64,000 nt of DNA from Eledone cirrhosa (Eukaryota): the NCBI GenBank assembly GCA_964016885.1, contig OZ024743.1, positions 335,544,001 through 335,608,000 on the forward strand, in the 5' to 3' direction. Position numbers and translations under genes: made by a program. A model generated the notes under the pieces. It did no database searches and had not been told where the DNA came from. It saw nothing but the letters and a program-made list of their open reading frames with translations. The stretch's first letter is position 1. Each line of letters opens with the position of its first letter. Shown piece by piece: positions 26,258-52,564 of the stretch.

Positions 26258-26356
<99 letters not shown>

Positions 26357-26419: not shown

Positions 26420-26459
<40 letters not shown>

Positions 26460-26919: not shown

Positions 26920-27004
26920 TATATATATATATATATATTTTACTTAAGGTAACCTATGGGCTGACTGCACAAAAGCCTTGGATGTTTATACAAAATTTGA
27001 ACTA

Positions 27005-28006: not shown

Positions 28007-28054
<48 letters not shown>

Positions 28055-29132: not shown

Positions 29133-29155
29133 TTACCTTATATATATATATATAA

Positions 29156-29240
<85 letters not shown>

Positions 29241-29369
29241 CTGAGTTTTTCGAATATTTATAATAACATTCGATTCGTTTGCAATTCTGCAAACAATATT
29301 CGAAAAACTCAGATTACATTTATTGTATTCAGCCATGTAGAGCGAAATTTTCTTTTTTATATATATATA

Positions 29370-30266: not shown

Positions 30267-30295
30267 TATATATACATATAATATATGTGGTGTGC

Positions 30296-30400
<105 letters not shown>

Positions 30401-30462
30401 TATGTGTGTGTGTCTGTGTGTTTGCGTTGTGTGTATATATATATGTATATATATATATATAT

Positions 30463-30720
30463 GACAGGTCGCTCTTGTGTGCTACTGGTAACATGTAACC
30501 CAGTACAACCTGTGTCGTGGCCGCCTTCGTCGGCGACTAAACCTGCAACCCCACCAAAAATCTGCGGCTTGGGAAGTATCCGATGATGATGACAAGTTCT
30601 CCTTTTCGGGTAGTGTTTTCGATGCTCAGAGAGTGGGATTGGTCGCGTGCATGGCCTTTCCCCACTTAAAAAACCTTCAAAGCACAGGCATTGCTTGTTC
30701 AGGATCTGCTGTAGGTTCGT
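30463..30720 (+). mobile_element. Short RTE-related non-autonomous element (diverged)
   Basis: GTGCTACTGGTAACATGTAACCCAGTACAACCTG...GGCGACTAAAC shared with 42677 and 61784. Confidence 0.6.
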
Positions 30721-30819
30721 GTGGCTGGTCCTAGCCTAAAAGTGAACCGAACTCTATAATCTGAGAAGCGATTGCAAAACTCTTAGCAGAGTTTTCAGCC
30801 ATCATATCTATATGTAATG

Positions 30820-31025
30820 GTTTCTGATTTAGGCACAAGATCAGTAATTTTGGAGGAGGGGAAAGTTGATTAAATTGACCCAGTGCATGACTGGTATTAT
30901 AGTTTATCGACCCCGTAAGAGTGAAAGGCAAAGTTACCCTCGGTGGAATATGAAATCAGAACGTAAAGAAACGTAACTCTCTGCATGGTGTTCGACGCTC
31001 TACCGATACTGCCAATCCAGCGCCC
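30820..31025 (-). mobile_element. SINE
   Basis: Reverse complement of the shared SINE core. Confidence 0.7.
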
Positions 31026-31248
31026 TTATATCTATATATAATAGTAATAAACAAAACACCTAAAACGAATGCGAAATGGTAATTCAAAGCTGTACGCGGG
31101 TGTCTCCCATTATTAACGAAACCAAGATTCTGATGAGTTGATTCCAGAGGGAGGCCTGAGTCTTAGTAAATATGGGCTAATTGATCGCGAAACGTACGTT
31201 ACATCAGAATAAACTTAATGTTGATACTTTGACACTCATTCTTACTTA

Positions 31249-31410
31249 TTGGATTTGCAGTATCGGTCGGACGCCATGCTTTGCTGTCTGAGTTCAAATC
31301 GCGCCGAGGTTAACTTTGCCTTTCATCCTTACGGGGTCGATAAAATAAAGTACCAGTTATGCACTGGGGTAATTGCTAGCCTTGTGCTAAAAGTAGAAAC
31401 ATTATTAATA
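31249..31410 (+). mobile_element. SINE
   Basis: Shared SINE core. Confidence 0.7.
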
Positions 31411-31623
31411 TTACATTCTGCTTATGAAAGAAACTGACCATAGTATAACACCAAGCGTACAATACCACGTACAATATATAAACGGATCCTTCTAAGTTCG
31501 TGAACCAACAGTAACGTAAGGTTACAATCTATTGAACTATATATATATTATTACTATCACACACACAAACACTTCTGTGTGTGTGATATGGTCTGACAAT
31601 TTGTACCATGTAATCTGCTTCGC

Positions 31624-34600
31624 AGATATATTTGTAAGCATGTGCTTTTCCTACCAACTCAGAAGTACGTTTTTGTAACTACGGATTATTATATACACTC
31701 GTTTTTCTCTTAATATCTTCAAATAACCAAAGTCTAACGCACGTATCAAATATATAAAAACGCACACAAGGGAAACAAATATGACTACTGCCCAAGAAGC
31801 CCACAACGGACGAAATTGGTGTGATAATGAAATTGACCTCTTAATAAACACATGGTTTTTTCTGTCCCAAACAGTAAACATTAACGCGTCATGTTTGAAT
31901 TAAATTGCTGAAAAAACAGCTCAAATATTTAGCACGAGGTCTGCTAAGCAGATACATTACAAACTAAAACGTAGAAGTCTCTTTCAAACTAATTCAAAAC
32001 CATTTTGAAAGACTTCGACATATTTACTCCAATGGACAAACACAACAACAACAACAACCACAATAACAACAACAACAATAACAACAACAACAACAACAGC
32101 CAGAAAATCAGGAGCCACCACCACCGCCACCACTACTTAATTCAAGCATGATAGCTGAGTTACTGAATGATAGTATCCCTCAACCACTCACTCAGCCATC
32201 ATTATCGCCATCACCATCACCACCGTCACCATCTTCTGCCACATCAACTGCTAGTAATGGACTACTGCTTTCTCTCCAACCACAGTTGTCATCATCATCA
32301 TCGTCACCACCACTGCTTTCTTCCCCCACATCACCACCACAACCATGCCATAGTCAAAAGAATTTTTTAAAAAATCTATGGAGCTGTATGCAACCCCCAC
32401 TACACATACTAATAAACCCCAAAATATGCCGCTACTCACTACGTCAGAGGCTATGCACACGTAGCGACTGTATATTTACCCATTTACCTGGTACTAGACG
32501 CACTAACACTGCCAGCCAACACCAAAGCACGCTGCCCGCACGCATAGGTCGGAGTCACAAAATCTGCCAACATTCCCAACGTGAGATGCTATGTCTGTTG
32601 ACTGACTCACCCTTCACTCATCTACCTCGGACACAACGCACGAACAGAAAAGGGGCTCCATGCCAACACACAAACCACAATAAAGCCACCCCTGCTGCAG
32701 TAATGCTGCTCCAGTTTTCTCACAAAGACACGAATACAAAAAAAAAAAAATAAATAAGTAATGGTACTCCAGTCTTTTCACAAAGACACGATTACAACAA
32801 CAACAAATACAACAACAACAAAAGTAATGCTGCTCCAGTCTTTCCACAAATACACGATTACAACAACAACCAAAGTAACGCGGCACCAGTCTTTTCACAA
32901 AGACACAATTACAACAAATACAAACAACAACAAAAGAGGGAACTGCAACCCTATCCAATGGTGTAACCACAAATCTAATCAAAAACTGCTCCCTGAACAA
33001 GAAAAAGTTTTCTTTTTTAGCCATGAACCTGGCAAAAGAGATAGAGAAAAACATTTTAGCCATCACCCAACACCATCCTTGCTGTCACTAACACAATCTC
33101 AAAACATCCCCCCTGCAACAGTTAAAACCAGCCACCACACTAGCCTCCAAATTTTTACTCAATACACAAAATGAAATATCCAATTCATTGAGGATTGGGT
33201 TGGTAACCATCCATTTCACATCCCCTTCTTCATTCTTACTGAGACCCACCTTGACAACTCCCACTTGGAGGCCGAAGTAAGAGTGAGGAATTTCACAACC
33301 ATCCGTGCGGATCGTGTTGGCAGAAGGAAGGGTGGAACTGCCATTTTCCTGCATGATTCCTTTACGGTAGATGGTAACACAACATTCTGCAATGGCTACT
33401 GTTAATCAGTCACTGTGCACAATAAAGCCAATGACCTGACATTAGTTGGGCTCCACAACCACCCATAATCTGCTTCAAAGAATGCCTCAACAGTATTAAA
33501 TGCTTTATTAAACAGTGCCATTCTAGCAACATACTTTTGATGGGAGACTTTATCTACCCTGTGTCGACTGGTTTACATGTAGTTTGAAACCAGGCACCCC
33601 AACCTCAACCACTGACAAAGAAGCTGTCGAGTCACTTCTTAACTTCATGAACGAGATTTTCTTGTCCCAACTTGTCCTTGCACCAACGAGGCATCAGAAG
33701 AACATTCTGGATCTAGTGTTTAATAACCACACTAACACTATACATAATATTACAGTGGAAAAAAACCCTTCTCTCAGACCATGGCATGGTTCTTTGTAAC
33801 CTGAGATTCCACCAGCTGAAAGCTAATCCCAGGGTACTCTTTCCAGTCCACCCATTTGATAACATTGATCTCTACAATGCCAACCGGGATGCAATTATGA
33901 ACGAACTGTCACACGTCGACTGGTCTTTTACACACGCACACACTGCCACCAACATCAAAAGATCTTGGCAGAACTTTGTAGACACTGTCACAAATATATG
34001 TACAAAACACAACCTACTAAAACCTGTGAACAAAACCAAGTGCAGTATCCCCCAAAACAGAAAAACAATTATCAGAAAAATAAAATGAACAAACAAAAAT
34101 TACTGCCAACTGCAACACACACATTCAATGACTATCACCCTGCTTGAGTCAAAAAAATATAACCTCCAGCAATGCATGATGACCATCATCAATAACCAGA
34201 GAATAGCTGAAGAGAGGTGGGCCATTGAGAAAATCAAACTCATCCCCAAAGTGTTCTTTTCATTTGCTAAAAAACACAAGGTCTCCACTGTTGGCCCTCT
34301 TGTTGATTAAAATGGCACACTCCAAGATAATGCCAAAACCATGGGCGAGATACTGCAGAAACAATACTGCTCTGTTTTCAGCAATCCTGATATGGCCGAT
34401 CTGGGCTGTACCAGTGATGTTAATCCCCAACACACTATATCAGACATAACGTTTGACGCCCCTGATGTCTTAGCGGCAATAAATGAAATTAAACTAAATT
34501 CAGCAGTAGACCCCGACAGGTCCCCTGCTTGTGTCCTGAAGGTCTGTCGACGCCAACTTGCACCTCCTCTTGCTAATCTGTGGAGGAACTCACTGGATAC

Positions 34601-36130
34601 TGGCTATATTCCTGAAAACTTTCTGTCCGAGTCCGTTGTCCCAGTCTTCAAAACAGGAAATAAGTCCCTAGCAGTGAACTACCATCCGATCTCATTCACA
34701 TCTCATATTATCAAGGTATTTGAGAGGGTGGTGAGATCACGAATAACCCCCTTTCCTGAAAGCAACGGCCTGCTGAACTCCAACCAACATGGGTTCCCTA
34801 ATGGAAGGGACTGCGTAACGCAGCTCTTGCATCACTTTGACGATGTTTTCAGAGCCTTGGGAGAGGGCTCCAACACTGATGTCATCTACCTTGATTTCAC
34901 CAATGCTTTTGACAGGGTTGATCATAATATTCTACTGAAAAAAACTACCCAATATTGGTGTCTCTGGAAGGTTACTGCAGTGGATCAAATGTTTCTTGAC
35001 AGACAGAATGCAGCATGTTGTAGTCGAAGGAGTAACCCTGCCAAAGTCAGCAGTGACGTCCCACAAGGCACTGTGTTGGGCCCACTTCTTTTCATCATAT
35101 ACATTAATGACATTACTGACATCATCAAGCACAGCAGCATAAGAATCTTCGCAGATGATTCAAAGCTCCAAAGGGTTATCAATGAGGTTATCAATGAGGT
35201 TATCAATGACTTGCCTTCAGTCAGACCTACTGGCTGTTATCCAATGGGCAGAAAAGAATAATATGCTGTTGAATGAAGATCATTTTGAATTAATCCACTT
35301 TGGAAAAAAGGATGCCCTGAAACTACCATACTCTCTTCCTTCGGATGAAACTCTAGTGGCATCCAACAACATCAGAGACCTGGGAGTAATTGTGGACAAC
35401 AACATAAGCTGGGCCACTCATATAAACAGCAAAGTTGATATGGCCCGCAGAATGTGTTCCTGGATATTCAGAACTTTCCAATCAAGAGATACCCACACTG
35501 TTATCCTCCTCTTCTCCACTTTTGCCCGACCCCACCTTGAATACTGTTGTCCACTGTGGTCTCCCCACACGTAACAAAGTATCATGAAAGTTGAAGCACC
35601 CCAAAGGTCAATTACAAAAAAGATAGATGGCATGACAGGCCTTGACTATTGGAGTTGATTAGAAAAGCTCAACCTTTATTCTCCCCAACGTCGCCGTGAG
35701 CGCTACATTATCTGTAGGATGTGGAAAATATTCCATCAGCTTTGCACAATGATCTTGGCATCACCTTCAATGTACATCGAAGGCTTGGGCCCCGTTCTAT
35801 CCGCCCGCGACAAAAATCTCACTCGCATCTCATAATAACAATACGGCACAATTATTTCACCTCAATTGGCCCTGCTCTCTTTAACATTACACCAAAACAC
35901 ATCAAAGCAGACACAGACCTCATCAAGTTCAAGAAGTCTTTGGATAAATTCCTTCAAGAAATCCCGGATAAGCCTCCCTCCCCCGGATATGCCTCCGTAA
36001 ACAATAACTCTCTGCTCGAGTGGGCCATGGTGCCCAAAACTGATTTGTAAAGACTTCGCCAGGTGGTGCTATTAAGTTAGACATGGCCTGGCCCAATACT
36101 GGCTGAAAGCTATCAAAGTTATCAAAGTTA
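31624..36130 (+). mobile_element. Decayed CR1-type LINE (ORF1 with two CCCH-like fingers; EN-RT ORF2; TATCAAAGT repeat tail)
   Basis: ETHL endonuclease motif, VPQGTVLGPLLF, FADD, RPHLEYCCPLWSP; many stops and frameshifts. Confidence 0.88.
32698..32935 (+). repeat. ~50-65-bp minisatellite in CR1 ORF1 (SNAAPVFSQRHDYNNN-like repeats)
   Basis: Four copies of AGTAATGCTGCTCCAGTCTTTTCACAAAGACACGA. Confidence 0.85.
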
Positions 36131-36319
36131 TTTATATATACATATATATATATATATATACATACATAATAATAGTTTACAGTATCGTAAAAGAGGATAG
36201 AAAGAAGATGTAAAAAGAGGTACGATACAGAATATTACATGCCAAAAGTGGATGCTTGGGTTATCAGGGTTAAATATTAGGGAACGTTAATATTTAGTTT
36301 AAACGTTAAGCAGAGCGGT

Positions 36320-36495
36320 TATAAGCAAAATAATTAATGAAAGGGTTACAAGCCGTTACAACATATCTTTATAAAGCTCTTACACATGTTTCGCCCATGA
36401 GCCCCATTGGGCGGAACATGTGGAACAGCTTTATAAAGATATGTGTTAACTATGTGTTAACGGTTTGTAACTCTTTCATGAATTATTTTGCTTAT
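36320..36495. repeat. Imperfect hairpin repeat unique to the left arm
   Basis: ATAAGCAAAATAATT...ACATGTTTCGCCCA / TGGGCGGAACATGT...AATTATTTTGCTTAT. Confidence 0.8.
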
Positions 36496-36655
36496 ATATA
36501 TATATATAATAAGGTTTGACGGACCCAGCATATTTATCAATGCCAGTACCGGTTGTATCTCACCGCACTCCATGGGCAATGTAAGATACATTACCAGAGT
36601 ATACACATAGTTATTTGCTTCAACACAACACACGTAAAACGAGTGCCTATAAGGT

Positions 36656-36765
36656 CCCGGACTCGAGTTTCTGCCGCACTAATGCAGCAGTATGGTGCAC
36701 TGCACCATCTGTCTTCATATATTATGCAACAATGCACAATCGGCTTATGCGGCTTCATCAGCGGG
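36656..36765 (-). ncRNA. Type I hammerhead ribozyme (mirror of 45075-45184)
   Basis: Reverse complement of the 45075 motif. Confidence 0.82.
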
Positions 36766-38257
36766 TATCGCCTAATCAATAACCAATCGATCGACAGAAT
36801 CCTAAGACCAGTCTATGCCGGCCATGACTGTTTGTGACGACTGACACGGTAAAGCTATTAGCAACTGGCACCCGATAGGACTCTATCTCTCAACTAGCCA
36901 CTGATTTTCAAATTTTACGTGGGGATGGGAAGCTAAAAAGAATCAATCTTTTAGATCCTGTCAGAAGCACTCAGCCAACGTGTCTCACACACAAATTATC
37001 AAGAAGTGAAAAGATGGCCATTAGAAATAGCAGTTCACATTGATATAAAATAGAATGGTAGCATTCGGTTCATGTCTCCAAGCCCCATGTATATATATAT
37101 GAGAGTTTTTAGTCTTCAAATTTATTGTTACTATATATATATGTGTGTGTGTATTGGAGCTCGTTTTGTGGTGTATGTATGACCCCTGCCTTCAGTCGTT
37201 TTTCTTGGTGTTACACTTTTTAACTTTTGTGTTGACATCTCTCTCCATTGAGTGATTTGTGATTGCCTCAAACAACTCGACTAGTACCTGCTGTATGGCA
37301 GCTACAAAACACACACATACACAGACACACGTGTATATTTATATGTGTGTGTGTGTATATAGATATATAGATTAATCCTGGGCAACGAGGGAAGAAGAAA
37401 AGGGTAATGGTTATGTCTGCTAAAATTGGAAATAAAAGGGAAAAATAGATGTAGGATTTTTAACATTAGAAAGTGACAAAACAATTGTTTATCATACCTA
37501 TACAAGTACAGCCGTTACAAATAACGGTGTCTATTGTAAAATCATATCTAATTCAATAACTTCTTGATTAAACCATCTTTTGTTTCTTTTTCTGAAATTG
37601 ATGCGAATATTACATTTGCAGAGAATGTTAATTTCACCATTTTTAATCTACAGGGAAATACGTTAATCTGACATATTTATATGAAATCCTTTCACATTTT
37701 ACCAATAAGATCGAAAAGTTAAAAAGAATAATTAGAAAATAAAATCAAATATAATAATGACATTATCATTTTGAAGGGACGGACGTCTTCAGGCCGCAGT
37801 TGCCGCCATTACTCGGTTTCTGTAGCAACAGTGGTGGGTAGGCTATTCGTACCATAACCTCTCTGGTGTACTTATCTTCCAATGCTCAACGTATGCACCA
37901 AACAATCTAGTTCCCCTCAGTCTCCATTTATTTTGTTGCTGTATCCACTCAACTATTCACAACTCAACGGCAAGCTTGAAATAACACCAAATTCCTTCTA
38001 ATATGTTTCTATTTGTTCCTAGGCTGCAATTAAAGTGCTTAATTAACCATTTAATAATTTATATCCTTGCTTAATCATTCGTTCTACCCAATGACTCAGA
38101 TTTTTAATAAAACTATTAAATCGATTAATTTATTCTTTTTTTTTTTTACTAGAAAAATATTATAGCCTATTTTGGGAAGACAAATTGATGCAAAATGCAT
38201 TAGTACAAAATGCATTTACAGTTTAGTCAAATAATTACTTGTATTATAAACATGAGT

Positions 38258-38307
<50 letters not shown>

Positions 38308-38485
38308 TAATAAAAACAATGAATAAAACAAAGAAACAGTTCCTTATATTAAAAATTCATCATTTTACGATCGTTTCTAGGATATATATGTGTGAGTTGG
38401 TATGTATATAATATAGATCTATGTAAAAAATTTACAAACTATCAGAGGAAATATACATACCTACACATATATGTGCTGTCTTCAG

Positions 38486-38547
<62 letters not shown>

Positions 38548-38650
38548 TGCAAGAGATGTCAACATGAATGGACCTGTTATTTTTATCTAAAGACATCTTT
38601 TTTCAATTACAACCCGCCAATCCCCTCAATCTATCTTATTTCTCATTCTT

Positions 38651-38686
38651 TCTTCTAATGAAGGACTAGCGTCCGAAACGTTAAGA
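38651..38686 (+). ncRNA. Minimal HHR with core mutation (CTAATGA)
   Basis: TCTT-CTAATGA-A-GGAC(tagc)GTCC-GAAAC-GTT-AAGA. Confidence 0.65.
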
Positions 38687-38901
38687 CCCTTTTCCTGTCA
38701 TTTCAAGCGTTAACCTAATATATTCCTTCCATATACTGTACCAATTGCGTTGTAATTTCTGTTTACCTATTACACACACATATATATATATGAATTCCCT
38801 TTTCTTTAAACCCATCAAACAATGACCTCCACCCATCACAATCCCCACCCTCTCCTACAACCAGAAAAGATATAAATACCACCACATTTACTAGGACAGT
38901 C

Positions 38902-38952
38902 AGCTTCCCGATGATTTCTCACGAATGAAACAGTTCTAGTCCTGTAGAAGCT
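38902..38952 (+). ncRNA. Type I HHR (variant core CCGATGA)
   Basis: AGCTTC-CCGATGA-T-TTC(tcac)GAA-T-GAAACAG(ttctagtc)CTGTA-GAAGCT. Confidence 0.72.
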
Positions 38953-39267
38953 TTTCTATATTAAAACATTGATATTCTGCCATGTATTGAGTACCTTACT
39001 TACTGTGGTTACCCCCGATTGAACCCGCAATAACTTATATATATATTACCGTACCGTCTAAATAAAATACCCTTTTTACACCAAAGCCACCTTCGTTCAC
39101 ATCTTAGGATAGATTTTATGATATATTTGTTCCTACTTAGGGTCATTGTACAGAACCGTAAATAGGAGCAAATATTTCATCTACATACAGGACGTGTCAA
39201 ATGTTACTACCATTTATTTTACTACTTATTGCTATTAAAAATAGACAGGGACTCTTGAGCCACCTTA

Positions 39268-39545
39268 GGCGCAGGTATGGCTGAGAGTTAAGGAAGTTAG
39301 CTTCGAAACCAGTTGGGTCTGGATCAATCCCATTGAGAAGCAATTTAGGCAAGTGTCTTCTGTCTTAGTTTTGGGATGACCACGTCCTTGTGAGTGGAAT
39401 TCGATTGACACAAACTACAGAAGACCGTCATATATGTATGTGTGTGTTTAATTTGTGACTGTGTTTATGCGCCGTAACTTAAAAGTTCGAAAAATATATC
39501 GATAAAATAAGTACTATACTTGAAAATATTAGTACTGGAATCGAT
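39268..39545 (+). mobile_element. SINE (mirror copy ~41680-41957 on minus)
   Basis: GGCGCAGGTATGGCTGAG tRNA-like head, GGCAAGTGTCTTC, GATAAAATAAGTAC tail. Confidence 0.6.
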
Positions 39546-39670
39546 ATGATCAAATTAGTTCATTTTTAAACATTTTTTGTACAATAATCGTCTACATGCG
39601 CTTACTGCAAAATCCCAAGCTCAATCGCATGTTTTACGCAAACAAATATTGCACTTCATCAGAAATAGCA

Positions 39671-39739
<69 letters not shown>

Positions 39740-39740
<1 letters not shown>

Positions 39741-41480
39741 TTAAATATTTTGATGTGAAACATACCAATTTTTCATTTTCAGGGTACTTGATGATGAGAT
39801 CTGAATTTGGTATTTTTTCACTTTTTCATTTATCGAAACTTATTTGGATTTTGAAGTTTGAACTTATCTACAGAGCAGGTTTGGATTTTGAAATTTAAAT
39901 TTGTCCAAGTACCACGGCCATTTGCCAATATGATTTGTTTTTATTGATTTATTATTTTAAATCGAGACAGGCAAACTGTATTATTATAATTAGTATTTTT
40001 CAATGTAGCTAACTTAGTCTTTTACAATACAAATACTTATATGTTGGTATTTGTGTTTATCATATATATTAATTTATATTAAATTGTATTACACGGCTCA
40101 GAAATACTTCTTTCTTTGAGCTATTTCATTGTAAAGGACTGTTTGAGTTTAGAACTCGTTATTCATAGTATCACGGCTCCTTCTGTCGAGCTAACGTTTA
40201 GCCCCATGAAAACGGCTGTTATTTCTAGCAGCACGACTATGAGGTAGCTAGACACTGAAAAACCATGTGCGTTAATCAGTCTTCTTAAATATTTTGAAGT
40301 GAAACATACCAATTTTTCAGGGTACTTGCTGATGAGATTTGAATTTGGTATTTTTTCACTTCAAAATCAAAATAAGTTTCGATAAATGAAAAAGTGAAAA
40401 AATACCAAATTCAGATCTCATCAGCAAGTACCCTGAAAAAATCGTATGTTTCACTTCAAAATATTTAAAACTGATTAACGCACATGGTTTTTCAGTGTCT
40501 AGCTGCCTCATACTCGTGCTGCTAGAAATAACAGCCGTTTTTATGGGGCTAAAAATTAGCTTGACAGAAGGAGCTTGAATAACGAGTTCTAAACTCAAAC
40601 AGTCCTTTACAATGAAATAGCTCAAAGAAAGAAGTATTTCTGAGCCGTGTAATACAAGTTAATATAAATTAATATATATGATAAACACAAATACCAACAT
40701 ATAACTGTTTGTATTGTAAAAGACTAAGTTAGCTACATTGAAAAATACTAATTATAATAATACAGTTTGCCTGTGTCGACTTAAAATAATAAATCAATAA
40801 AAACAAATCATATTGGCAAATGGCCGTGGAACTTGGACAAATTTAAATTTCAAAATCCAAACCTGCTCCGTAGATAAGTTTAAACTTCAAAATCCAAATA
40901 ATTTTCGATAAATGAAAAAGCGAAAAATACCAAATTCAGATCTTATCAGCAAGTACCCTAAACAATTGGTATGTTTCACTTCAAAATATTTAAGAAGACT
41001 GATTAACGCACATGGTTTTTCAGTGTCTAGCTGCCTCATACTCGTGCTGCTAGAAATAACAGCCGTTTTTATGGGGCTAAAAATTAGCTGGACAGAAGGA
41101 GCCGTGATACTATGAATAACGAGTTCTAAACTCAAACAGTCCTTTACAATGAAATAGCTCAAAGAAAGAAGTATTTCTGAGCCGTGTAATACAATTAATA
41201 TGAATTAATATATATGATACACACAAATACCAACATATAAGTGTTTGTATTGTAAAAGACTAAGTTAGCTAGATTGAAAAATACTAATTATAATAATACA
41301 GTTTGCCTGTCTCGTGGTACTTGGACAAATTTAAATTTCAAAATCCAAACCTGCTCCGTAGATAAGTTTAAACTTCAAAATCCCAATAAGTTTCGATAAA
41401 TGAAAAAGTGAAAAAATACCAAATTCAGATCTCATCAGCAAGTACCCTGAAAAATTGGTATGTTTCACTTCAAAATATCT
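39740..41480. repeat. ~0.5-kb HHR-bearing tandem repeat forming the centre of the large palindrome
   Basis: GGTACTTG(C)TGATGAG recurs at 39783 and 40321 (+) and at 40432, 40957, 41446 (-); orientation flips at ~40360. Confidence 0.9.
41316..41446 (-). ncRNA. Type I HHR with intact core and extended helix III (other copies 39783-39913 +, 40828-40957 -)
   Basis: GGTACTTG-CTGATGA-GAT...ATC-GAAAC-(~70-nt GU-rich hairpin)-GTC-CAAGTACC; 8-bp helix I; GUC cleavage triplet. Confidence 0.82.
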
Positions 41481-41484
41481 ACGA

Positions 41485-41552
<68 letters not shown>

Positions 41553-42495
41553 TGCTATTTCTGATGAAGTGCAATATTTGTTTGCGTAAAACATGCGATT
41601 GAGCTTGGGATTTTGCAGTAAGCGCATGTAGACGATTATTGTACACAAAATGTTTTAAAATGATCTAATTTGATCATATCGATTCCAGTACTAATATTTT
41701 CAAGTATAGTACTTATTTTATCGATATATTTTTCGAACTTTTAAGTTACGGCGCATAAACACAGTCACAAATTAAACACACACATACATATATGACGGTC
41801 TTCTGTAGTTTGTGTCAATCGAATTCCACTCACAAGGACGTGGTCATCCCAAAACTAAGACAGAAGACACTTGCCTAAATTGCTTCTCAATGTGATTGAT
41901 CCAAACCCAACTGGTTTCGAAGCTAACTTCCTTAACTGTCAGCCATACCTGCGCCTAAGGTGGCTCAAGAGTCCCTGTCTATTTTTAATAGCAATAAGTA
42001 GTAAAATAAATGGTAGTAACATTTGACACGTCCTGTATGTAGATGAAATATTTGCTCCTATTTACGGTTCTGTACAATGACCCTAAGTAGGAACAAATAT
42101 ATCATAAAATCTATCCTAAGATGTGAACGAAGGTGGCTTTGGTGTAAAAAGGGTATTTTATTTAGACGGTACGGTAATATATATATAAGTTATTGCGGGT
42201 TCAATCGGGGGTAACCACAGTAAGTAAGGTACTCAATACATGGCAGAATATCAATGTTTTAATATAGAAAAGCTTCTACAGGACTAGAACTGTTTCATTC
42301 GTGAGAAATCATCTTTTCTGGTTGTAGGAGAGGGTGGGGATTGTGATGGGTCGAGGTCATTGGTTGATGGGTTTAAAGAAAAGGGGATTCATATATATAT
42401 ATATGTGTGTAATAGGTAAACAGAAATAACAACACAATTGGTACAGTATATGGAAGGAATATATTAGGTTAACGCTTGAAATGACAGGAAGAGGG

Positions 42496-42531
42496 TCTTA
42501 ACGTTTCGGACGCTAATCCTTCATCAGAAGA
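42496..42531 (-). ncRNA. Minimal type I HHR with palindromic helix III
   Basis: TCTT-CTGATGA-A-GGA(ttagcg)TCC-GAAAC-GTT-AAGA. Confidence 0.78.
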
Positions 42532-42639
42532 AAGAATGAGAAATAAGATAGATTGAGGGGATTGGCGGGTTGTAATTGAAAAAAGATGTCTTTAGATAAA
42601 AATAACAGGTCCATTCATGTTGACATCTCTTGCAATATA

Positions 42640-42676
<37 letters not shown>

Positions 42677-42680
<4 letters not shown>

Positions 42681-43272
42681 CAGGTCACCAGTTGGTGCTA
42701 CTGGTAACATGTATCCCAGTACAACCTGTTTCATGGTCGGGTCGTTGGCGACTAAACTGGCAACCCCACCAAGGTTTCTTGGTGAGGAGGGTGACTTTGG
42801 ACATCCTGCAGGACTAAAAACAAAACCTGTCAAAGGGCAAAGGAGCTCTTAAGAGTCAATGGCCATCCAAAATCACCGGGAGAGATGACCCCTTAGCCTT
42901 TGTCAAGGCAGAATTCTAGGAGAAGGAAAACTCTGATATAACACCTGCAACCCTGATGGTATCCAATGATGTTGACTTGTTCTACTTTTTGGTAAATATC
43001 ATCTTGGTTAAGAGAGTGGGACTGGCTCTGTGCAATGCCTTTGCTCACTATAAAAGCTTCATGGCACAGGCATTGCTTTATGTCTGGAGATCTCTCTGCA
43101 CTTGTCACATGGTACCGTGGGCCCAGCACTGTGTGTCAATAATTGTCACAGGTGTAGTGTTTGTACCAGAGTTATCAAGTCGCTGGCTGGACTCAAAAGT
43201 CACACTCGTTCAGCGCATCGGTAGGGGTTCTCCTACATGGATATAAAGTAGTGGCCGTACTCGAAAACGAGT
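42677..43272 (+). mobile_element. ~600-bp RTE-derived non-autonomous element, right arm only
   Basis: Highly similar to 61181-61784 (-); 3' end matches the zinc-finger LINE tail at 60735-60915; sits within (TA)n. Confidence 0.75.
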
Positions 43273-43556
43273 TGGCAGCCACCATATATATATATATAGT
43301 TATAAATATTTACTCGTTGTTAACCCAACAATTTAAATATAACTTTCCATATATGTATATATATATATATATATATTTCTGAAGACAGCACATATATGTG
43401 TAGGTATGTATATTTCCTCTGATAGTTTGTAAAATTTTTACATAGATCTATATGATATACATACCAACTCACACATATATATCCTAGAAACGATCGTAAA
43501 ATGATGAATTTTTAATATAAGGAACTGTTTCTTTGTTTTATTCATTGTTTTTATTA

Positions 43557-43594
<38 letters not shown>

Positions 43595-45074
43595 ACTCAT
43601 GTTTATAATACAAGTAATTATTTGACTAAACTGTAAATGCATTTTGTACTAATGCATTTTGCATCAATTTGTCTTCCCAAAATAGGCTATAATATTTTTC
43701 TAGTAAAAATAAAAAGAATAAATTAATCGATTTAATAGTTTTATTAAAAATCTGAGTCATTGGGTAGAACGAATGATTAGGCAAGGATATAAATTATTAA
43801 ATGGTTAATGAAGCACTTTAATTGCAGCCTAGGAAGAAATAGAAACATATTAGAAGGAATTTGGTGTTATTTCAAGCTTGCCGTTGAGTTGTGAATAGTT
43901 GAGTGGATACAGCAACAAAATAAATGGAGACTGAGGGGAACTAGATTGTTTGGTGCATACGTTGAGCATTGGAAGATAAGTACACCAGAGAGGTTATGGT
44001 ACGAATAGCCTACCCACCACTGTTGCTACAGAAACCGAGTAATGGCGGCAACTGCGGCCTGAAGACGTCCGTCCCTTCAAAATGATAATGTCATTATTAT
44101 ATTTGATTTTATTTTCTAATTATTCTTTTTAACTTTTCGATCTTATTGGTAAAATGTGAAAGGATTTCATATAAATATGTCAGATTAACGTATTTCCCTG
44201 TAGATTAATAATGGTGAAATTAACAAATGTAGTATTCGCATCAATTTCAGAAAAAGAAACAAAAGATGGTTTAATCAAGAAGTTATTGAATTAGATATGA
44301 TTTTACAATAGACACCGTTATTTGTAACGGCTGTACTTGTATAGGTATGATAAACAATTGTTTTGTCACTTTCTAATGTTAAAAATCCTACATCTATTTT
44401 TCCCTTTTATTTCCAATTTTAGCAGACATAACCATTACCTTTTTTCTTCTTCCCTCGTTGCCCAGGATTAATCTATATATCTATATACACACACACATAT
44501 AAATATACACGTGTGTCTGTGTATGTGTGTGTTTTGTAGCTGCCATACAGCAGGTACTAGTCGAGTTGTTTGAGGCAATCACAAATCACTCAATGGAGAG
44601 AGATGTCAACACAAAAGTTAAAAAGTGTAACACCAAGAAAAACGACTGAAGGCAGGGGTCATACATACACCACAAAACGAGCTCCAATACACACACACAT
44701 ATATATATAGTAACAATAAATTTGAAGACTAAAAACTCTCATATATATATACATGGGGCTTGGAGACATGAACCGAATGCTACCATTCTATTTTATATCA
44801 ATGTGAACTGCTATTTCTAATGGCCATCTTTTCACTCCTTGATAATTTGTGTGTGAGACACGTTGGCTGAGTGCTTCTGACAGGATCTAAAAGATTGATT
44901 CTTTTTAGCTTCCCATCCCCACGTAAAATTTGTAAATCAGTGGCTGGTTGAGAGATAGAGTCCTATGGGTGCCAGTTGCTAATAGCTTTACCGTGTCAGT
45001 CGTCACAAACAGTCATGGCCGGCATAGACTGGTCTTAGGATTCTGTCGATCGATTGGTTATTGATTAGGCGATA

Positions 45075-45184
45075 CCCGCTGATGAAGCCGCATAAGCCGA
45101 TTGTGCATTGTTGCATAATATATGAAGACAGATGGTGCAGTGCACCATACTGCTGCATTAGTGCGGCAGAAACTCGAGTCCGGG
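45075..45184 (+). ncRNA. Type I HHR with large helix II insertion
   Basis: CCCG-CTGATGA-A-GCCGCA...TGCGGC-A-GAAAC-TCGA-GTC-CGGG; palindromic helix III ACTCGAGT; GUC triplet. Confidence 0.85.
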
Positions 45185-45394
45185 AACCTTATAGGCACTC
45201 GTTTTACTTGTGTTGTGTTGAAGCAAATAACTATGTGTATACTCTGGTAATGTATCTTACATTGCCCATGGAGTGCGGGGAGATACAACCGGTACTGGCA
45301 TTGATAAATATGCTGGGTCCGTCAACCCTTATTATTATTATTATTATTATATACTCCGTTGCTTCATTTGATATATATATATATATATATCAAA

Positions 45395-46130
45395 TGAAGC
45401 AACGGAGTAAAGGACTCGCTTTCTTCAATACACAGTCCACACGACGGATTGCCCCTAGCGTATGGCTTGGACTTTGTGATGGCTTTCCATTGAATGGAGT
45501 AGTCTATACCTGAGTCCTTGAGGGACCATACGTGTTTCGCGAGTTTCGTGGCTGATCGTTTGTCCGGGTACCTAATGGTCGACTGATGGTTCAGGAAGCG
45601 TTCCTTAAATCCGCCCTCCGTCATACCCACATTGGATTTGGCCTCCTGTGGTTGACTTGGTCGGCTGGAAGTGACCACAGCTTGATAAACTACAGCGGGT
45701 GTGTTGCATTACTGTTGAAAGGGACAAGCTTCAGGCTTTCGACAAGAGCAGCCTGGTGGGGTGCCACTCTTAGGACTGTTGGGGATGTGGGCCTTCATAT
45801 TCTTAGCGCAGGAGTACCGTAGTTTTACTCTGTGTCTGTTAAAGATGAAGCGGTATTTGTGACCTATGGGAAAGTGTGTCTCCAAGAGGGCTAAGAATGT
45901 TCTTCCTACATTAGTTTTAACGTTGAGTGAGCAGGGAGGAGAGAACCAGATAGTTCTGAAGTTGTTGACTTGTTTGCTCAAGTTACTCCGTTGTTGAAGA
46001 GGAGGGCTTTCCGGCAGTGTGCCATGATCTCCTTATATAAAACATGGACGGTAGTGTAAGTGGTAGCAAAGTCCAACGCTTTGTTTAGCAGGGTCTCTGA
46101 GATCGACGGGTAAAATCTACAATGTCGAAT
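45395..46130 (-). mobile_element. Degenerate Penelope-like element fragment (RT remnant + GIY-YIG)
   Basis: FYPSISETLLNKALDFA, IWFSPP, IFNRHRVKLRYSC, CSCRKPEACP, FKERFLNH, CGLCIEE, homologous to 53690-56092. Confidence 0.8.
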
Positions 46131-46776
46131 GCGTGAACTTCCCTTTTTTGGAGTTGAAGTTAACTCCTTCAACTCCAAAAAAACGAACAATGAACTATAA
46201 TGTCGATGCATATGAAAAGCGTCTTGGTCTTGCCATATTGGTGTATGCCGCCATAATTACGAGAGTTCATGATGGGGTGGGTGGTTCAATCATTTTTAAC
46301 GAGGAGAAAAGGGCGCAAAAGGTAGTCATACTCAATGATTAGTTGATAGCCATGTTTACATGTTTATAAATCCAATATGTATATTAACATACACATTCAG
46401 ACACCCTCCGTTAATCCTGCACTGTACCTACAGCGATATGTATTTCTCATGTATTCGGGCAACATTGCCGCAATTAATGTATATAAGGTAATTAGCTGCA
46501 GGCATAATCTCTGATAATATGCGAATTAGTACACACATTTTACAGTTATCACTACACTTAGCAGGCTTTATAAAGGCATTTGGGTGCGTATTTCTCTGAT
46601 GAGACCCTAATAAACTTTGAAGATTATTAACGACTTCGCAGTAATATGTAAATATGATATGATTGCATGTCTAAAAAGGCCATGTGTATATTTATATAAG
46701 CATTCCCGAAACATCTGTTAATACTAAGGTGTATATATATATATATATATGTACATACACACACACATACACACAC

Positions 46777-46887
<111 letters not shown>

Positions 46888-46908
46888 AATATATATATAT
46901 AATATATG

Positions 46909-46944
<36 letters not shown>

Positions 46945-47056
46945 TAAAAGAGAAAACACAGGTAAGCATTAAGAGAAGGATTTTATCCAGGTACTTACGA
47001 CGAGCTGGATCACAAAAAGCAATTTTCTGCTTCCCTAATTATATATATATATATAT

Positions 47057-50000
47057 AACTTTGATAACTTTGATAGCTTTCGGCCAGTATTGGCCCAGGC
47101 CATGTCTAACTTAATAGCACCACCTGGCGAAGTCTTTACAAATCACTTTTGGGCACCATGGCCCACTCGAGCAGAGAGTTATTGTTTACGGAGGCATATC
47201 TGGGTGTAGGAGGCTTATCCGGGATTTCTTGAAGGAATTTATCCAAAGACTTCTTGAACTTGATGAGGTCTGTTTCTGCTTTGATGTGTTTTGGTGTTAT
47301 GTTAAAGAGAGCAGGGCCAATTGAGGTGAAATAATTGTGCCGTATTGTTATTATGAGATGCGAGTGAGATTTTTGTCGCGGGCGGATAGAACGGGGCCCA
47401 AGCCTTCGATGTACATTGAAGGTGATGCCAACATCATTGTGCAAAGCTGATGGAATATTTTCCACATCCTACAGATAATGTAGCGCTCACGGCGACATTG
47501 GGGAGAATAAAGGTTGAGCTTTTCTAATCAACTCCAATATTCAAGGCCTGTCATGCCATCTATCTTTTTTGTAATTGACCTTTGGGGTGCTTCAACTTTC
47601 ATGATACTTTGTTTCGTGTGGGGAGACCACAGTGGACAACAGTATTCAAGGTGGGGTCGGGCAAAAGTGGAGAAGAGGAGGATAACAGTGTGGGTATCTC
47701 TCGATTGGAAAGTTCTGAATATCCAGGAACACATTCTGCGGGCCATATCAACTTTGCTGTTTATATGAGTGGCCCAGCTTATGTTGTTGTCCACAATTAC
47801 TCCCAGGTCTCTGATGTTGTTGGATGCCACTAGATTTTCACCTGAAGGAAGAGAGTATGGTAGTTTCAGGGCATCCTTTCAGGAAAGTGGGTTATTCGTG
47901 ATCTCACCACCCTCTCAAATACCTTGATAATATGAGATGTGAATGAGATCGGACGGTAGTTAATTGCAAGGGAGTTATTTCCCTTTTTGAAGACTGGGAC
48001 AATAGACTGGGACAGACAGTTTTCAGGAATATAGCCAGTGTCCAGTGAGTTCCTCCGCAGATTAGCAAGAGGAGTTGCAAGTTGGTGTCAACACACCTTC
48101 AGGACACAAGCAGGGAACCTGTCGGGGCCTACTGCTGAATTGTGTTTAATTTCGTTTATTGCCGCTAAGACATCAGGGGCGCCAAACGTTATGTCTGATA
48201 TAGTGTGTTGAGGATTAACATCACTGGTACAGCCCAGATCGGCCATATCAGGATTGCTGAAAACAGAGCAGTATTGTTTCTGCAGTATCTCGCCCATGGT
48301 TTTGGCATTATCTTGGAGTGTGCCATTTTAATCAACAAGAGGGCCAACAGTGGAGACCTTGTGTTTTTTAGCAAATGAAAAGAACACTTTGGGGATGAGT
48401 TTGATTTTCTCAATGGCCCACCTCTCTTCAGCTATTCTCTGGTTGTTGATGATGGTCATCATGCATTGCTGGAGGTTATATTTTTTTGACTCAATCAGGG
48501 TGATAGTCATTGAATGTGTGTGTTGCAGTTGGCAGTATTTTTTTGTTTGTTCATTTTATTTTTCTGATAATTGTTTTTCTGTTTTGGGGGATACTGCACT
48601 TGGTTTTGTTCACAGGTTTTAGTAGGTTGCTTTTTTTACATATATTTGTGACAGTGTCTACAAAGATCTGCCAAGATCTTTTGATGTTGGTGGCAGTGTG
48701 TGCGTGTGTAAAAGACCAGTCGACGTGTGACAGTTCGTTCATAATTGCATCCCAGTTGGCATTGTAGAGATCAATGTTATCAAATGGGTGGACTGGAAAG
48801 AGTACCCTGGGATTAGCTTTCGGCTGGTGGAATCTCAGGTTACAAAGAACCATGCCATGGTCTGAGAGAAGGATTTTTTTCCACTGTAATATTATGTATA
48901 GTGTTAGTGTGGTTATTAAACACTAGATCCAGAATGTTCTTCTGATGTCTCGTTGGTGCAAGGACGATTTGGGACAAGAAAAACTCATTCATGAAGTTAA
49001 GAAGTGACTCGACAGCTTCTTTGTCAGTGGTTGAGGTTGGGGTGCCTGGTTTCAAACTACATGTAGACCAATTGACACAGGGTACATAAAGTCTCCCATC
49101 AAAAGTATGTTGCTAGAATGGCACTGTTTAATAAAGCATTTAATACTGTTGAGGCATTCTTTGAAGCAGATTATGGGTGGTTGTGGAGCCCAACTAATGT
49201 CAGGTCATTGGCTTTATTGTGCACAGTGACTGATTCACAGTAGCCATTGCAGTGTGTTGTGTTACCATCTACCGTAAAGGAATCATGCAGGAAAATGGCA
49301 GTTCCACCCTTCCTTCTGCCAACACGATCCGCACGGATGGCTGTGAAATTCCTCACTCTTACTTCGGCCTCCAAGTGGGAGTTGTCAAGGTGGGTCTCAG
49401 TAAGAATGAAGAAGGGGATGTGAAATGGGTGGTTACCAACCCAATCCTCAATGAATTTGATCTTCCATTTCTGTGCATTGATGGATGGGCTGATACCTTG
49501 TGTATTGAGTAAAAATGTGGAGGCTAGTGTAGTGGCTGGTTTTAACTGTTGCAGGGGGGGCTTGTTTTGAGATTATGTGTTAGTGACAGCAAGGATGGTG
49601 TTGGGTGATGGCTAAAATGTTTTTCTCTATCTCTTTTGCCAGGTTTATGGCTAAAAACGAACACTTTTTCTTGTTCAGGGAGCAGTTTTTGATTAGATTT
49701 GTGGTTACACCATTGGATAGGGTTGCAGTTCCCTCTTTTGTTGTTGTTGTTTGTATTTGTCGTAATTGTGTCTTTGTGAAAAGACTGGTGCCGCGTTACT
49801 TTGGTTGTTGTTGTAATCGTGTATTTGTGGAAAGACTGGAGCAGCATTACTTTTGTTGTTGTTGTATTTGTTGTTGTTGTAATCGTGTCTTTGTGAAAAG
49901 ACTGAAGTACCATTACTTATTTTTTTTTTTTTTTTTGTATTCGTGTCTTTGTGAGAAAACTGGAGCAGCATTACTGCAGCAGGGGTGGCTTTATTGTGGT

Positions 50001-51052
50001 TTGTGTGTTGGCATGGAGCCCCTTTTCTGTTCGTGCGTTGTGTCCGAGGTAGATGAGTGAAGGGTGAGTCAGTCAACAGACATAGCCTCTCACGCTGGGA
50101 ATGTTGGCAGATTTTGTGACTCCGACCTATGCGTGCGGGCAGCGTGCTTTGGTGTTGGCTGGCAGTGTTAGTGCGTCTAGTACCAGGTAAATGGGTAAAT
50201 ATACAGTCGCTACGTGTGCATAGCCTCTGACGTAGTGAGTAGCGGCATATTTTGGGGTTTATTAGTATGTGTAGTGGGGGTTGCATACAGCTCCATAGAT
50301 TTTTAAAAAAATTCTTTTGACTATGGCATGGTTGTGGTGGTGATGTGGGGGAAGAAAGCAGTGGTGGTGACGATGATGATGATGACAACTGTGGTTGGAG
50401 AGAAAGCAGTAGTCCATTACTAGCAGTTGATGTGGCAGAAGATGGTGACGGTGGTGATGGTGATGGCGATAATGATGGCTGAGTGAGTGGTTGAGGGATA
50501 CTATCATTCAGTAACTCAGCTATCATGCTTGAATTAAGTAGTGGTGGCGGTGGTGGTGGCTCCTGATTTTCTGGCTGTTGTTGTTGTTGTTGTTATTGTT
50601 GTTGTTGTTATTGTGGTTGTTGTTGTTGTTGTTGTGTTTGTCCATTGGAGTAAATATGTCGAAGTCTTTCAAAATGGTTTTGAATTAGTTTGAAAGAGAC
50701 TTCTACGTTTTAGTTTGTAATGTATCTGCTTAGCAGACCTCGTGCTAAATATTTGAGCTGTTTTTTCAGCAATTTAATTCAAACATGACGCGTTAATGTT
50801 TACTGTTTGGGACAGAAAAAAACATGTGTTTATTAAGAGGTCAATTTCATTATCACACGAATTTCGTCCGTTGTGGGCTTCTTGGGCAGTAGTCATATTT
50901 GTTTCCATTGTGTGCGTTTTCAGATATTTGATACGTGCGTTAGACTTTGGTTATTTGAAGATATTAAGAGAAAAACGAGTGTATATAATAATCCGTAGTT
51001 ACAAAAACGTACTTCTGAGTTGGTAGGAAAAGCACATGCTTACAAATATATC
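47057..51052 (-). mobile_element. Mirror copy of the CR1-type LINE with ~550-bp deletion of the RT core
   Basis: Reverse complement of 31624-36130 sharing stops and frameshifts; deletion junction ~47880. Confidence 0.9.
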
Positions 51053-52202
51053 TAAGGCGGGTAAAATTCCCGAGATCCATGGACGAGTTCTCCCCAGCGG
51101 TCTCTGTCCCTCATTATCGCTGCCATGTCCTGCGTCTCCAACAGACCAGTGTCTGTCCTTAGGGCATCAACATACGTTAACCTAGTCTTCCTCTTCTTGT
51201 GTGTCAATATAGGGGCTCCCAAAGCTGCACTGAGTGCAATGTCAACTCTGGATGTCGGTGAGCATGTCCAGCTAACCCCAGTCTCCTCTGTGTCACCTTT
51301 GAGCTGACTTTTGGGATGCTCCCATACAGCTCTGAGTTTTTCATCCTCAGTGTATACTGATTAATGTTCAGAGCTATCTTCAGCATTCTCGTGTAGCACC
51401 CATCCACCATCTGAGTGAGTTTCTTGGTCAGTGTCCAAGTCTCAGACCCATTCAGCAGCACAGACTCCACTACAGCAATGAAGAGGCGGACTTTCAGATC
51501 TCTACGAAGGTCCGACTTCCACACCGATCTCAAGCTGTGGCACGCCGCCCAGGCCTTGCTCTTCCTCTCAACCACATCATCCTCCGTATTCCCAATCTTT
51601 GCTCCCAAATACAGGAAGCCCTCAACCAGTTCTAGCGGCTTCCCGCCTACATTAGTGATCCCCTCTGGCTTCTCAACATTCTCTACCAGATATTTTGTTT
51701 TAGTCTCATTAATTCTCAGCCCACACTCATCGACACAGTCTCAACCTCTCGCATCAAATCCTCTGCCTCCTCCACTGTATTTGTCACTAAAATTATGTCG
51801 TCGGCAAATTCAGCATCCGATACCCTTTTCGCCCTAACTCTCCTGCTCTGAGCCGGTGCTACAATAAAGCCAGAGTCCTGGTGTTTCTCCAGTGCAAGGC
51901 GCATACAATAGTCCACTACGATGATAAAAAGGTATGGAGCCAATGTATCTCCCTGGAGCACTCCAGCCAGTATCTCAAAGAAGTCTGTCATCCCATCAGG
52001 TGTAATGACTTGGGCTTTCGTCTTGGTGTAGAGCAGTGATATCAGGTCCACTATCCTCTTGGGGATTCCATAAGCCTGTAAGATTTTCATCAGGCAGTAA
52101 CGGTCCACAGAATCAAAGGCCTTCCTAAAGTCAATGAAAACCATGACCGCAGGAAGGCACTTTGCTCTAGCTCTCTCTAATATCCTCCTCAGCATCAGGA
52201 TG
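51052..52202 (-). mobile_element. 5'-truncated RTE-clade LINE with 12-bp TSD
   Basis: FIDFRKAFDSV, GVLQGDTLAPYLF, FADD, VESVLLNGSETW; TSD TTACAAATATAT at 51040-51051 and 52203-52214. Confidence 0.88.

Positions 52203-52522: not shown

Positions 52523-52564
<42 letters not shown>

What the first reader, a model, noticed from the sequence alone, without database searches (positions are those of the whole stretch)
31624..51052. ~19-kb palindrome whose turn-around point lies inside the HHR repeat
Seen: two ~9-10 kb arms in mirror order share inactivating CR1 mutations and unique spacer DNA, so the duplication postdates LINE decay. The flip at ~40357-40360 falls inside an HHR, through ACTT microhomology with a short asymmetric spacer. 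This geometry matches the 376-bp HHR palindrome at 26544 and resembles the inverted junction of the Penelope at 56432. Inference: HHR/Penelope-mediated template switching or endonuclease nicking may create inverted duplications at scales from 0.2 to 10 kb and copy flanking host DNA.
Basis: partly seen in the sequence, partly recalled or inferred. Interest (0 to 1): 0.75.

Follow-up and report, generated by a model that had tools for sequence, protein, structure and literature searches.

The report
Double fold-back scar through a retrozyme
In this genome assembly the 19-kb mirror repeat is half of a double mirror duplication of about 16 kb of ordinary chromosome DNA, likely made when both ends of one chromosome break folded back and copied themselves, and it turns around inside a likely then-young ribozyme-bearing jumping element whose unfinished insertion may have caused the break.

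Summary
The palindrome is in the assembly as described, with the flip inside a type I hammerhead (4-nt ACTT overlap, 30-nt spacer). It is half of a three-junction rearrangement. A second inverted duplication (8 kb) abuts its left edge, giving X-P-S-P'-Q'-Q-Y. The P'/Q' joint is spanned by short-read contigs; the central flip is not (inconclusive test). The right arm is the original.

The claimed geometric match fails. The 376-bp palindrome, the Penelope-like element and 30 of 30 inverted family loci are head-to-head insertions, and 0 of 37 other loci duplicate host flank. This centre is tail-to-tail, 3'-truncated and unique in 3 Gb.

Best reading: host repair of one break by reciprocal fold-backs (0.8), a known class. 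The retrozyme units share almost no mutations across the arms, so the fold-back is about as old as the insertion. Unfinished retrozyme integration as trigger therefore stays at about even odds (0.4 overall). Mis-assembly is about 0.1. Unchecked scan notes report smaller look-alikes elsewhere in this genome.

The parts
31624..40361 (+). Left arm Q' (derived copy): LINE cut about 100 bp into its 5' end, two-copy spacer DNA, (TA)n, one retrozyme unit plus 84 nt
   Evidence: family LINE copies continue 5' into the sequence found right of the RTE-like insert, not into the left flank
40358..51053 (-). Right arm Q (original): 118 nt plus two retrozyme units, (TA)n, spacer DNA with two later inserts, LINE
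40358..40395 (.). Junction J3: fold-back, ACTT (40358-61) and AAGT (40392-95) around a 30-nt spacer, inside a hammerhead that it truncates
   Evidence: the junction 25-mer occurs once in 3 Gb; not spanned by reads, inconclusive
39738..41487 (.). Tandem ~538-bp type I hammerhead repeat (retrozyme-like), tail-to-tail, 5' ends on (TA)n, 3' end missing; only the unit at 41438(-) keeps an intact motif
31624..31625 (.). Junction J2: end of Q joined to start of P through 2 shared nt (CT), which are also the last 2 nt of the RTE-like element beside Q
   Evidence: spanned with 0 differences by 118-nt contigs in X4 and X5
2322..31625 (-). P': inverted copy of P (G000:C4:335534028-335542030, left of the window), later expanded by a ~21-kb LINE cluster (4073-25290) and a 376-bp palindrome
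   Evidence: 116 of 6224 sites differ = 1.86%
2311..2330 (.). Junction J1: second (reciprocal) fold-back, 4.3-kb spacer S; 8-nt ATTTCAAA inverted match to the end of P
   Evidence: a repeat spans the original P|S boundary in about 40 other copies, so P-S is native and P' is cut; junction letters; not tested by reads
51054..52202 (-). 5'-truncated RTE-like LINE with a 12-nt target duplication (ATATATTTGTAA) in the 5' end of the Q LINE; older than the duplication
   Evidence: 32 of 1145 private substitutions = 2.8%
26475..26918 (.). 376-bp head-to-head hammerhead palindrome; an insertion present in P' only; not part of the mechanism
52552..58318 (-). Penelope-like element with a head-to-head inverted 5'-truncated copy and an 82-nt one-sided tail; neighbour only
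   Evidence: GIY-YIG hit below the Pfam cut-off (E 0.0036); RT not detected by Pfam or PDB

Best explanation
The 19-kb palindrome is half of a three-junction rearrangement X-P-S-P'-Q'-Q-Y, likely made in one event when both ends of a chromosome break folded back on short inverted matches, copied 8-9 kb of their own flank, and were then joined to each other through a 2-nt overlap. Shown in the assembly: the layout, which copies are original, and the three junction sequences; shown in short reads: J2. Inferred steps: (1) a break, with loss of unknown DNA between 2321 and the retrozyme's 3' end; (2) the right end's 3' strand snapped back on ACTT over a 30-nt loop and copied Q; (3) the left end snapped back near an 8-nt match over a 4.3-kb loop and copied P; (4) the two new 3' ends (CT and AG) annealed, or the equivalent outcome came from replication and fusion of sister ends; (5) the arms then gathered their own mutations and insertions, and were probably partly re-homogenised by arm-to-arm conversion. 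Host repair, not the ribozyme and not the element's usual inversion step, made the U-turn. The trigger is open: about half of this confidence goes to the retrozyme's own unfinished integration, half to an ordinary break that happened to hit it.
For: Second inverted duplication ends within 2 nt of the first, with similar divergence, 1.86% and 1.63%. Native versus novel joints are polarised by repeats that cross them. J2 is spanned in X4 and X5; both arm alleles are present at about 1:1 (10.6/7.6 and 6.7/6.6). No N gap in 264 kb. J3 has a 4-nt stem and 30-nt loop, like yeast fold-backs (stems from 4 bp, median loop 35.5 nt in repair-proficient strains; PMC7467729 passages) and human inverted duplications with a normal-copy spacer (PMC3907307 abstract). 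Reciprocal fold-backs from one break are described in cancer genomes (23 cases; PMC12807874 passages). The family's own inversions have the opposite polarity and never included host flank.
Against: J3 was not spanned by any contig or read in 4 runs and J1 was not tested. No single-copy depth baseline was obtained, so 1:1 arm alleles alone do not separate paralogs from alleles. Arm divergence is patchy (0.8-3.6% outside CpG; chi-square p about 3e-4 in both P and Q), which needs gene conversion under this model but comes naturally from two haplotypes. The arms carry unequal numbers of retrozyme units (1+84 nt against 2+118 nt), needing one more unit loss or gain. The break at exactly the RTE 3' end is unexplained.
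Confidence: 0.8

Rival explanations
1. Sub-case of the best explanation: the break came from the retrozyme's own Penelope-driven integration. The 5' end was joined, second-strand synthesis stopped inside the element, and the gap became a double-strand break whose ends folded back.
For: The element keeps its 5' junction on (TA)n and lacks its 3' end anywhere in 264 kb. Units are star-like: 9 private sites in the left unit, 5 and 10 in the right units, 0 shared left+R1, 1 shared left+R2, so the fold-back is at least about 65% as old as the insertion (95% bound). Strict hammerhead motifs are sparse, 28 in 1 Mb sampled. Human L1 gives 3'-truncated inserts and fold-backs this way (10.1101/2024.12.14.628481 passages). 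A Penelope protein cuts both target strands in vitro (PMC11167929 part 1 of 4).
Against: 0 of 37 other family loci show it. J1 has no TA target or element remnant. A break inside any element gives the same 3' truncation half the time. The coincidence was picked after the fact. One event only.
Confidence: 0.4
2. Sub-case of the best explanation: an ordinary break or stalled fork (fold-back priming, microhomology template switching) in a repeat-dense region; the retrozyme is a bystander.
For: Two of three junctions have no hammerhead; J2 lands on another retroelement's end, showing how easily breakpoints meet element features here. The six hammerhead-type elements I listed cover 13% of this window. 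The region also holds a 16.5-kb tandem duplication and borders a satellite block.
Against: Does not predict that the duplication and the insertion are nearly the same age.
Confidence: 0.4
3. Assembly artefact: two haplotypes, or a direct tandem duplication around the real J2, were joined in mirror order through the tandem repeat.
For: J3 unconfirmed by reads; patchy 1.6-1.9% divergence and insertion differences resemble alleles; arm alleles about 1:1.
Against: J2 is a real end-to-start joint, so P and Q are rearranged in any case. It needs two separate false U-turns, each at a short inverted match, and loss of the second S copy; S 1200-2330 is single in the assembly. A fold-back read artefact would give identical arms. 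In one search the locus-private stretches away from J3 were also uncovered and X5 and X6 laid nothing.
Confidence: 0.1
4. One reading: the Penelope inversion step itself, scaled up, copied host DNA; or the whole is a giant foldback transposon.
For: A hammerhead repeat lies at the centre; Penelope ends can frame captured host DNA (PMC3846280 passages).
Against: Opposite polarity; the arms do not end in element ends, TA targets or a target duplication; spacer DNA is two-copy only; in 1 Mb sampled all 6 inverted structures with arms of about 0.6-2.5 kb looked repeat-internal.
Confidence: 0.03

Closest known systems
Fold-back inverted duplications (human germline, PMC3907307, abstract read; yeast, PMC7467729, passages read)
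   Same: Normal-copy spacer between arms, short inverted match at the spacer edge (4-nt stem, 30-nt loop), a second junction that stabilises the product.
   Different: Interstitial and kb-scale; both break ends folded back and were joined to each other; old, apparently inherited, in an animal genome.
Reciprocal foldbacks from breakage-replication/fusion (PMC12807874, passages read)
   Same: Two facing fold-back junctions at one break, each joining adjacent parallel breakpoints less than 20 kb apart.
   Different: Described in cancers and experimental clones; here the two duplicated arms are rejoined locally into one linear chromosome.
L1-induced inverted duplications, foldbacks and 3'-truncated inserts (10.1101/2024.12.14.628481, passages read)
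   Same: A 3'-truncated retroelement with an intact 5' junction at a fold-back, deletion on its 3' side, microhomology of a few nt.
   Different: A non-autonomous hammerhead repeat of Penelope type, not L1; causation is not shown here.
Penelope-like insertions with inverted 5'-truncated copy and tail (PMC8557442, PMC3846280 passages; PMC11167929 part 1 of 4)
   Same: Describes the repeat family, the 376-bp palindrome and the element at 52552-58318: TA targets, two fixed 3' ends, head-to-head inversion.
   Different: The 19-kb centre is tail-to-tail, lacks both fixed 3' ends and duplicates host DNA; tails here are 82 nt against the 30-40 nt quoted.
Metazoan non-LTR retrozymes (PMC7229834 passages; 10.64898/2026.07.22.740005 part 1 of 5)
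   Same: Tandem, non-coding repeats, each with a type I hammerhead.
   Different: Unit about 538 bp (quoted range 150-450 bp); helix III is 2 bp with a 63-nt loop; no RNA evidence here.

Membership tests
Fold-back inverted duplication | Inverted copy separated by a normal-copy spacer | tested here: met
   30-nt spacer at J3, 4.3-kb spacer at J1 in the assembly
Fold-back inverted duplication | Short inverted match at the spacer boundary | tested here: met
   ACTT/AAGT at J3; ATTTCAAA near J1
Fold-back inverted duplication | Turn-around junction present in real molecules | tested here: inconclusive
   J3 spanned in 0 of 4 runs, test underpowered; J2 spanned in X4 and X5; J1 not tested
Reciprocal foldbacks (breakage-replication/fusion) | Two facing fold-backs at reciprocal ends, breakpoints within 20 kb of each other in each pair | tested here: met
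   J1 and J3 with native and novel joints polarised; the size of the lost DNA between them is unknown
Reciprocal foldbacks (breakage-replication/fusion) | Origin by replication of sister ends rather than snap-back synthesis | not testable with these tools
   Both routes give the same product
Penelope-like insertion architecture (for the 19-kb centre) | Inverted copy adjacent at the 5' end (head-to-head) | tested here: not met
   Centre is tail-to-tail; 19 of 26 and then 13 of 13 (11 new) family loci are head-to-head
Penelope-like insertion architecture (for the 19-kb centre) | Fixed 3' ends with one-sided tail on TA targets | tested here: not met
   Family ends at unit positions 350 and 432; this locus ends at 84 and 118
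Non-LTR retrozyme (for the central repeat) | Type I hammerhead with conserved core and helices | tested here: met
   Core kept with a free N7 position; 8-bp helix I, closing pair G-C to A-U in 6 of 25 copies (likely one inherited change); 97% of cells paired; helix III only 2 bp
Non-LTR retrozyme (for the central repeat) | Tandem non-coding units of a few hundred bp, dispersed in the genome | tested here: met
   About 538-bp tandem units, slightly above the quoted range; 202 exact core motifs genome-wide; no stop-free frame above 121 codons over the repeat
Non-LTR retrozyme (for the central repeat) | Self-cleavage and linear or circular RNA | not testable with these tools
   No RNA run among those listed (a DNA search)
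Foldback DNA transposon | Multi-copy element with terminal repeats and a target duplication | tested here: not met
   Spacer DNA occurs only in the two arms; outer ends are a rearrangement joint and a LINE end
   Only a Pfam RVT_1 hit; RTE-like for the other insert is likewise a label recalled from motifs

The most novel reading that the evidence does not exclude
An aborted integration of a non-autonomous Penelope-type retrozyme left a double-strand break in the germ line whose two ends both folded back, duplicating about 16 kb of host DNA in one step: Penelope-type elements as triggers of inherited multi-kb inverted duplications, parallel to L1 in human cancers.
Probability: 0.4. Interest if true: 0.6.

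Novelty: new member of a known kind. Interest (0 to 1): 0.35.

Why it matters
As it stands this is one well-preserved, apparently inherited example of reciprocal fold-backs, a pattern known mainly from cancer genomes and yeast, with all three junctions readable. No protein-coding host gene was seen in the part inside the window. If the retrozyme's integration caused it, Penelope-type elements, which are abundant in many invertebrates, would be a source of large palindromes and local duplications, testable by a genome-wide count of 3'-truncated elements at palindrome centres. Four paper searches (listings and the passages cited only, no supplements) showed no report of that for Penelope-type elements; that is a limited search.

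Tried and rejected
Rfam scan: no hammerhead family hit; only 5S rRNA passed a gathering score, so the motif was tested by alignment instead. Reads on J3 at 98% likeness: nothing spanned it; X5 and X6 laid nothing and X4 only high-depth family pieces; counted as inconclusive, and the strict threshold may have cost power. RAD runs X7-X9 barely cover the unique stretches. I first read the SINE at 2199-2300 as cut by J1 with a templated insert; rejected, because 7 of 19 distinct copies do not continue into the usual SINE sequence after the same base and this one has its own target duplication. RTE insertion as part of the same event: disfavoured, it is 2.8% diverged against about 0.8-1.8% per arm. 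Ribozyme cut as breakpoint: rejected, 48 nt or more away. A search for repeats crossing the X|P boundary found none, so X-P being native rests on parsimony. Insertion of a circular inverted dimer: rejected because J2 is the novel joint and Q-Y is native. Pfam and PDB did not detect the RT of the 831-codon frame. In the flank test two of 37 loci had one flank under 400 bp (L029, L108), and L110-L112 are copies of one insertion; one locus (L021) had a distant 110-bp 85% inverted match, read as a dispersed repeat.
Full report
Setting. The window is G000:C4:335544001-335608000 of a 3.0-Gb, repeat-rich eukaryotic assembly. Negative coordinates below continue the window leftwards; -9972 is C4:335534028.

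The observation. Self-comparison gives nested inverted matches 31624-34762/51053-47876, 35307-36146/47879-47040, 36506-38533/45335-43331 and 38504-40355/42676-40923. About 7.8 kb align; 109 of 6667 scored sites differ (1.63%). The arms differ by a 548-bp deletion on the right, inserts of about 360 bp (left) and about 1.7 kb (right) at one TA run, and a 682-bp right insert. The stretch 37100-38250 has only these two full copies. The LINE in the arms shares 137 differences from a nearby family copy, against 35 and 25 arm-specific ones, so the duplication came after most of its decay. At the centre the + strand unit ends in ACTT (40358-40361), then 30 single-copy bases and AAGT begin the mirror. 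The junction 25-mer occurs once in the genome.

The central repeat. It is a dispersed family of about 538-bp tandem units (202 exact core motifs). Rfam did not detect it. An alignment of 25 copies shows a type I hammerhead: core with a variable N7, 8-bp helix I whose closing pair switches G-C to A-U in 6 copies (probably one inherited change), 3-bp helix II, and a 2-bp helix III with a 63-nt loop. This fits non-LTR retrozymes (PMC7229834 passages), proposed to derive from Penelope-like elements (10.64898/2026.07.22.740005, part 1 of 5). The flip cuts through one motif, at unit positions 84 and 118; the predicted cut site is near 166.

Polarity. Of 26 other distinct loci, 19 have an inversion, all head-to-head with fixed 3' ends at unit positions 350 or 432, mostly on TA runs, and 7 are uninverted (one of the 19, L029, also abuts a second fragment). 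Exact motif-pair patterns with 30-400 nt gaps found 13 head-to-head loci (11 new) and 1 tail-to-tail locus, this one. None of the 37 other loci has inverted host flanks (35 had at least 400 bp on both sides). Head-to-head is the published Penelope layout (PMC8557442 and PMC3846280 passages). The 376-bp palindrome and the element at 52552-58318 are head-to-head too. The first is a young insertion (0 of 159 sites differ between halves) found in only one copy of a duplicated segment. In five arbitrary 200-kb blocks, 6 inverted structures had arms of about 0.6-2.5 kb; all looked repeat-internal (Penelope-like pieces judged by eye from frames and TA ends, and one head-to-head hammerhead-core array), none copied multi-kb host DNA, and strict hammerhead motifs numbered 28.

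The larger structure. The DNA left of 31625 is itself an inverted copy of -9972..-1970 (116 of 6224 sites differ, 1.86%). The order is X-P-S-P'-Q'-Q-RTE-Y with no N gap in 264 kb. Family copies of the arm LINE continue 5' into the sequence found right of the RTE-like insert (6 of the 7 other family loci whose upstream was printed). That insert has a 12-nt target duplication. So Q is original and Q' is cut at J2. A repeat crosses the P|S boundary in about 40 other copies, so P-S is native and P' is cut at J1 (2321/2322). J2 shares CT between the start of P and the end of Q plus the last two bases of the RTE. The retrozyme's 3' remainder is absent from the 264 kb, so DNA was lost between S and Q.

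Reads. Contigs of 118 nt span J2 without differences in X4 and X5 (depth 17.2, 16.1; one sample). Both arm alleles appear in one bubble at 10.6/7.6 and 6.7/6.6, with neighbouring shared contigs at about 17-19 and 12. J3 was spanned in none of X4, X5, X6, X9. That test is weak: locus-private stretches away from J3 were also uncovered, two runs laid nothing, and one search shows private alleles inside high-copy repeats dropped from these contigs. No single-copy depth baseline was obtained and J1 was not tested. Mis-assembly stays at about 0.1.

Timing. Arm divergence is patchy, 0.8-3.6% outside CpG (chi-square p about 3e-4 for P and for Q); I infer arm-to-arm conversion, though alleles would look similar. 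The RTE has 32 private changes in 1145 sites (2.8%) and is probably older. The retrozyme units are star-like: 9, 5 and 10 private sites, none shared between the left unit and the first right unit, one shared with the second. Had the fold-back come long after the insertion, these would share mutations; the 95% bound puts the duplication at 0.64-0.68 or more of the insertion's age.

Mechanism. Both ends of one break likely folded back, one over 30 nt on a 4-nt match and one over 4.3 kb near an 8-nt match, copied 8-9 kb, and were joined through CT/AG; replication and fusion of sister ends would give the same product. This matches yeast and human fold-backs (PMC7467729 passages; PMC3907307 abstract) and reciprocal foldbacks in cancer genomes (PMC12807874 passages). 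The trigger is open. Incomplete second-strand synthesis of L1 gives 3'-truncated inserts at rearrangements (10.1101/2024.12.14.628481 passages), and a Penelope protein cuts both strands in vitro (PMC11167929 part 1 of 4). With the near-equal ages, that route gets 0.4, an ordinary break 0.4; these odds are judgement, not computed.

Earlier scan notes. None lay near this place or matched the unit's sequence. Unchecked notes on this genome describe head-to-head Penelope stumps, a 33.5-kb palindrome on a hairpin repeat, and two smaller cases of flank folded back beside a hammerhead element. I did not test them.

Verdict. Interest 0.35.

Noticed in passing
window 52552-58318 and family loci L008-L036: The Penelope-like element and the hammerhead repeat family both have two fixed 3' ends exactly 82 nt apart (58236/58318; unit 350/432), although self-BLAST shows no sequence similarity between them. 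Published tails are 30-40 nt. It may point to a shared mobilising enzyme type.
   Followed up: partly
window 51053/51054 and 31624: Junction J2 falls within 2 nt of the 3' end of an older RTE-like insertion, in a TA-rich spot of the LINE 5' end where another family copy (L063) also changes flank. Unexplained.
   Followed up: partly
window 4073-25290: About 21 kb of tandemly stacked LINEs sit in a (TAA)n run of P' only; the matching site in P is the bare microsatellite, which suggests repeated targeting of this run.
   Followed up: no
G000:C4:335606467-335639047 (starts at window 62467): A 16.5-kb direct tandem duplication at 96-99% identity, followed by a 78-bp satellite array of at least 70 kb.
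   Followed up: no
window 29014-29132: A single 5S rRNA-like copy (80 bits) followed by a TA run, inside P'.
   Followed up: no
G000:C3:200075266-200084594 (L167-L168): Head-to-head tandem array of about 470-510-bp units, each with a hammerhead-like core and a TA run; another retrozyme-like family.
   Followed up: no
L110, L111, L112 (G000:C4:320.0-320.4 Mb): Three copies of one retrozyme insertion with the same flanks, one inverted: a local segmental duplication.
   Followed up: no
window 27005-27365 and its copy near -5498..-4798: A 360-bp palindromic element without a hammerhead core; the P copy has an extra internal repeat.
   Followed up: no
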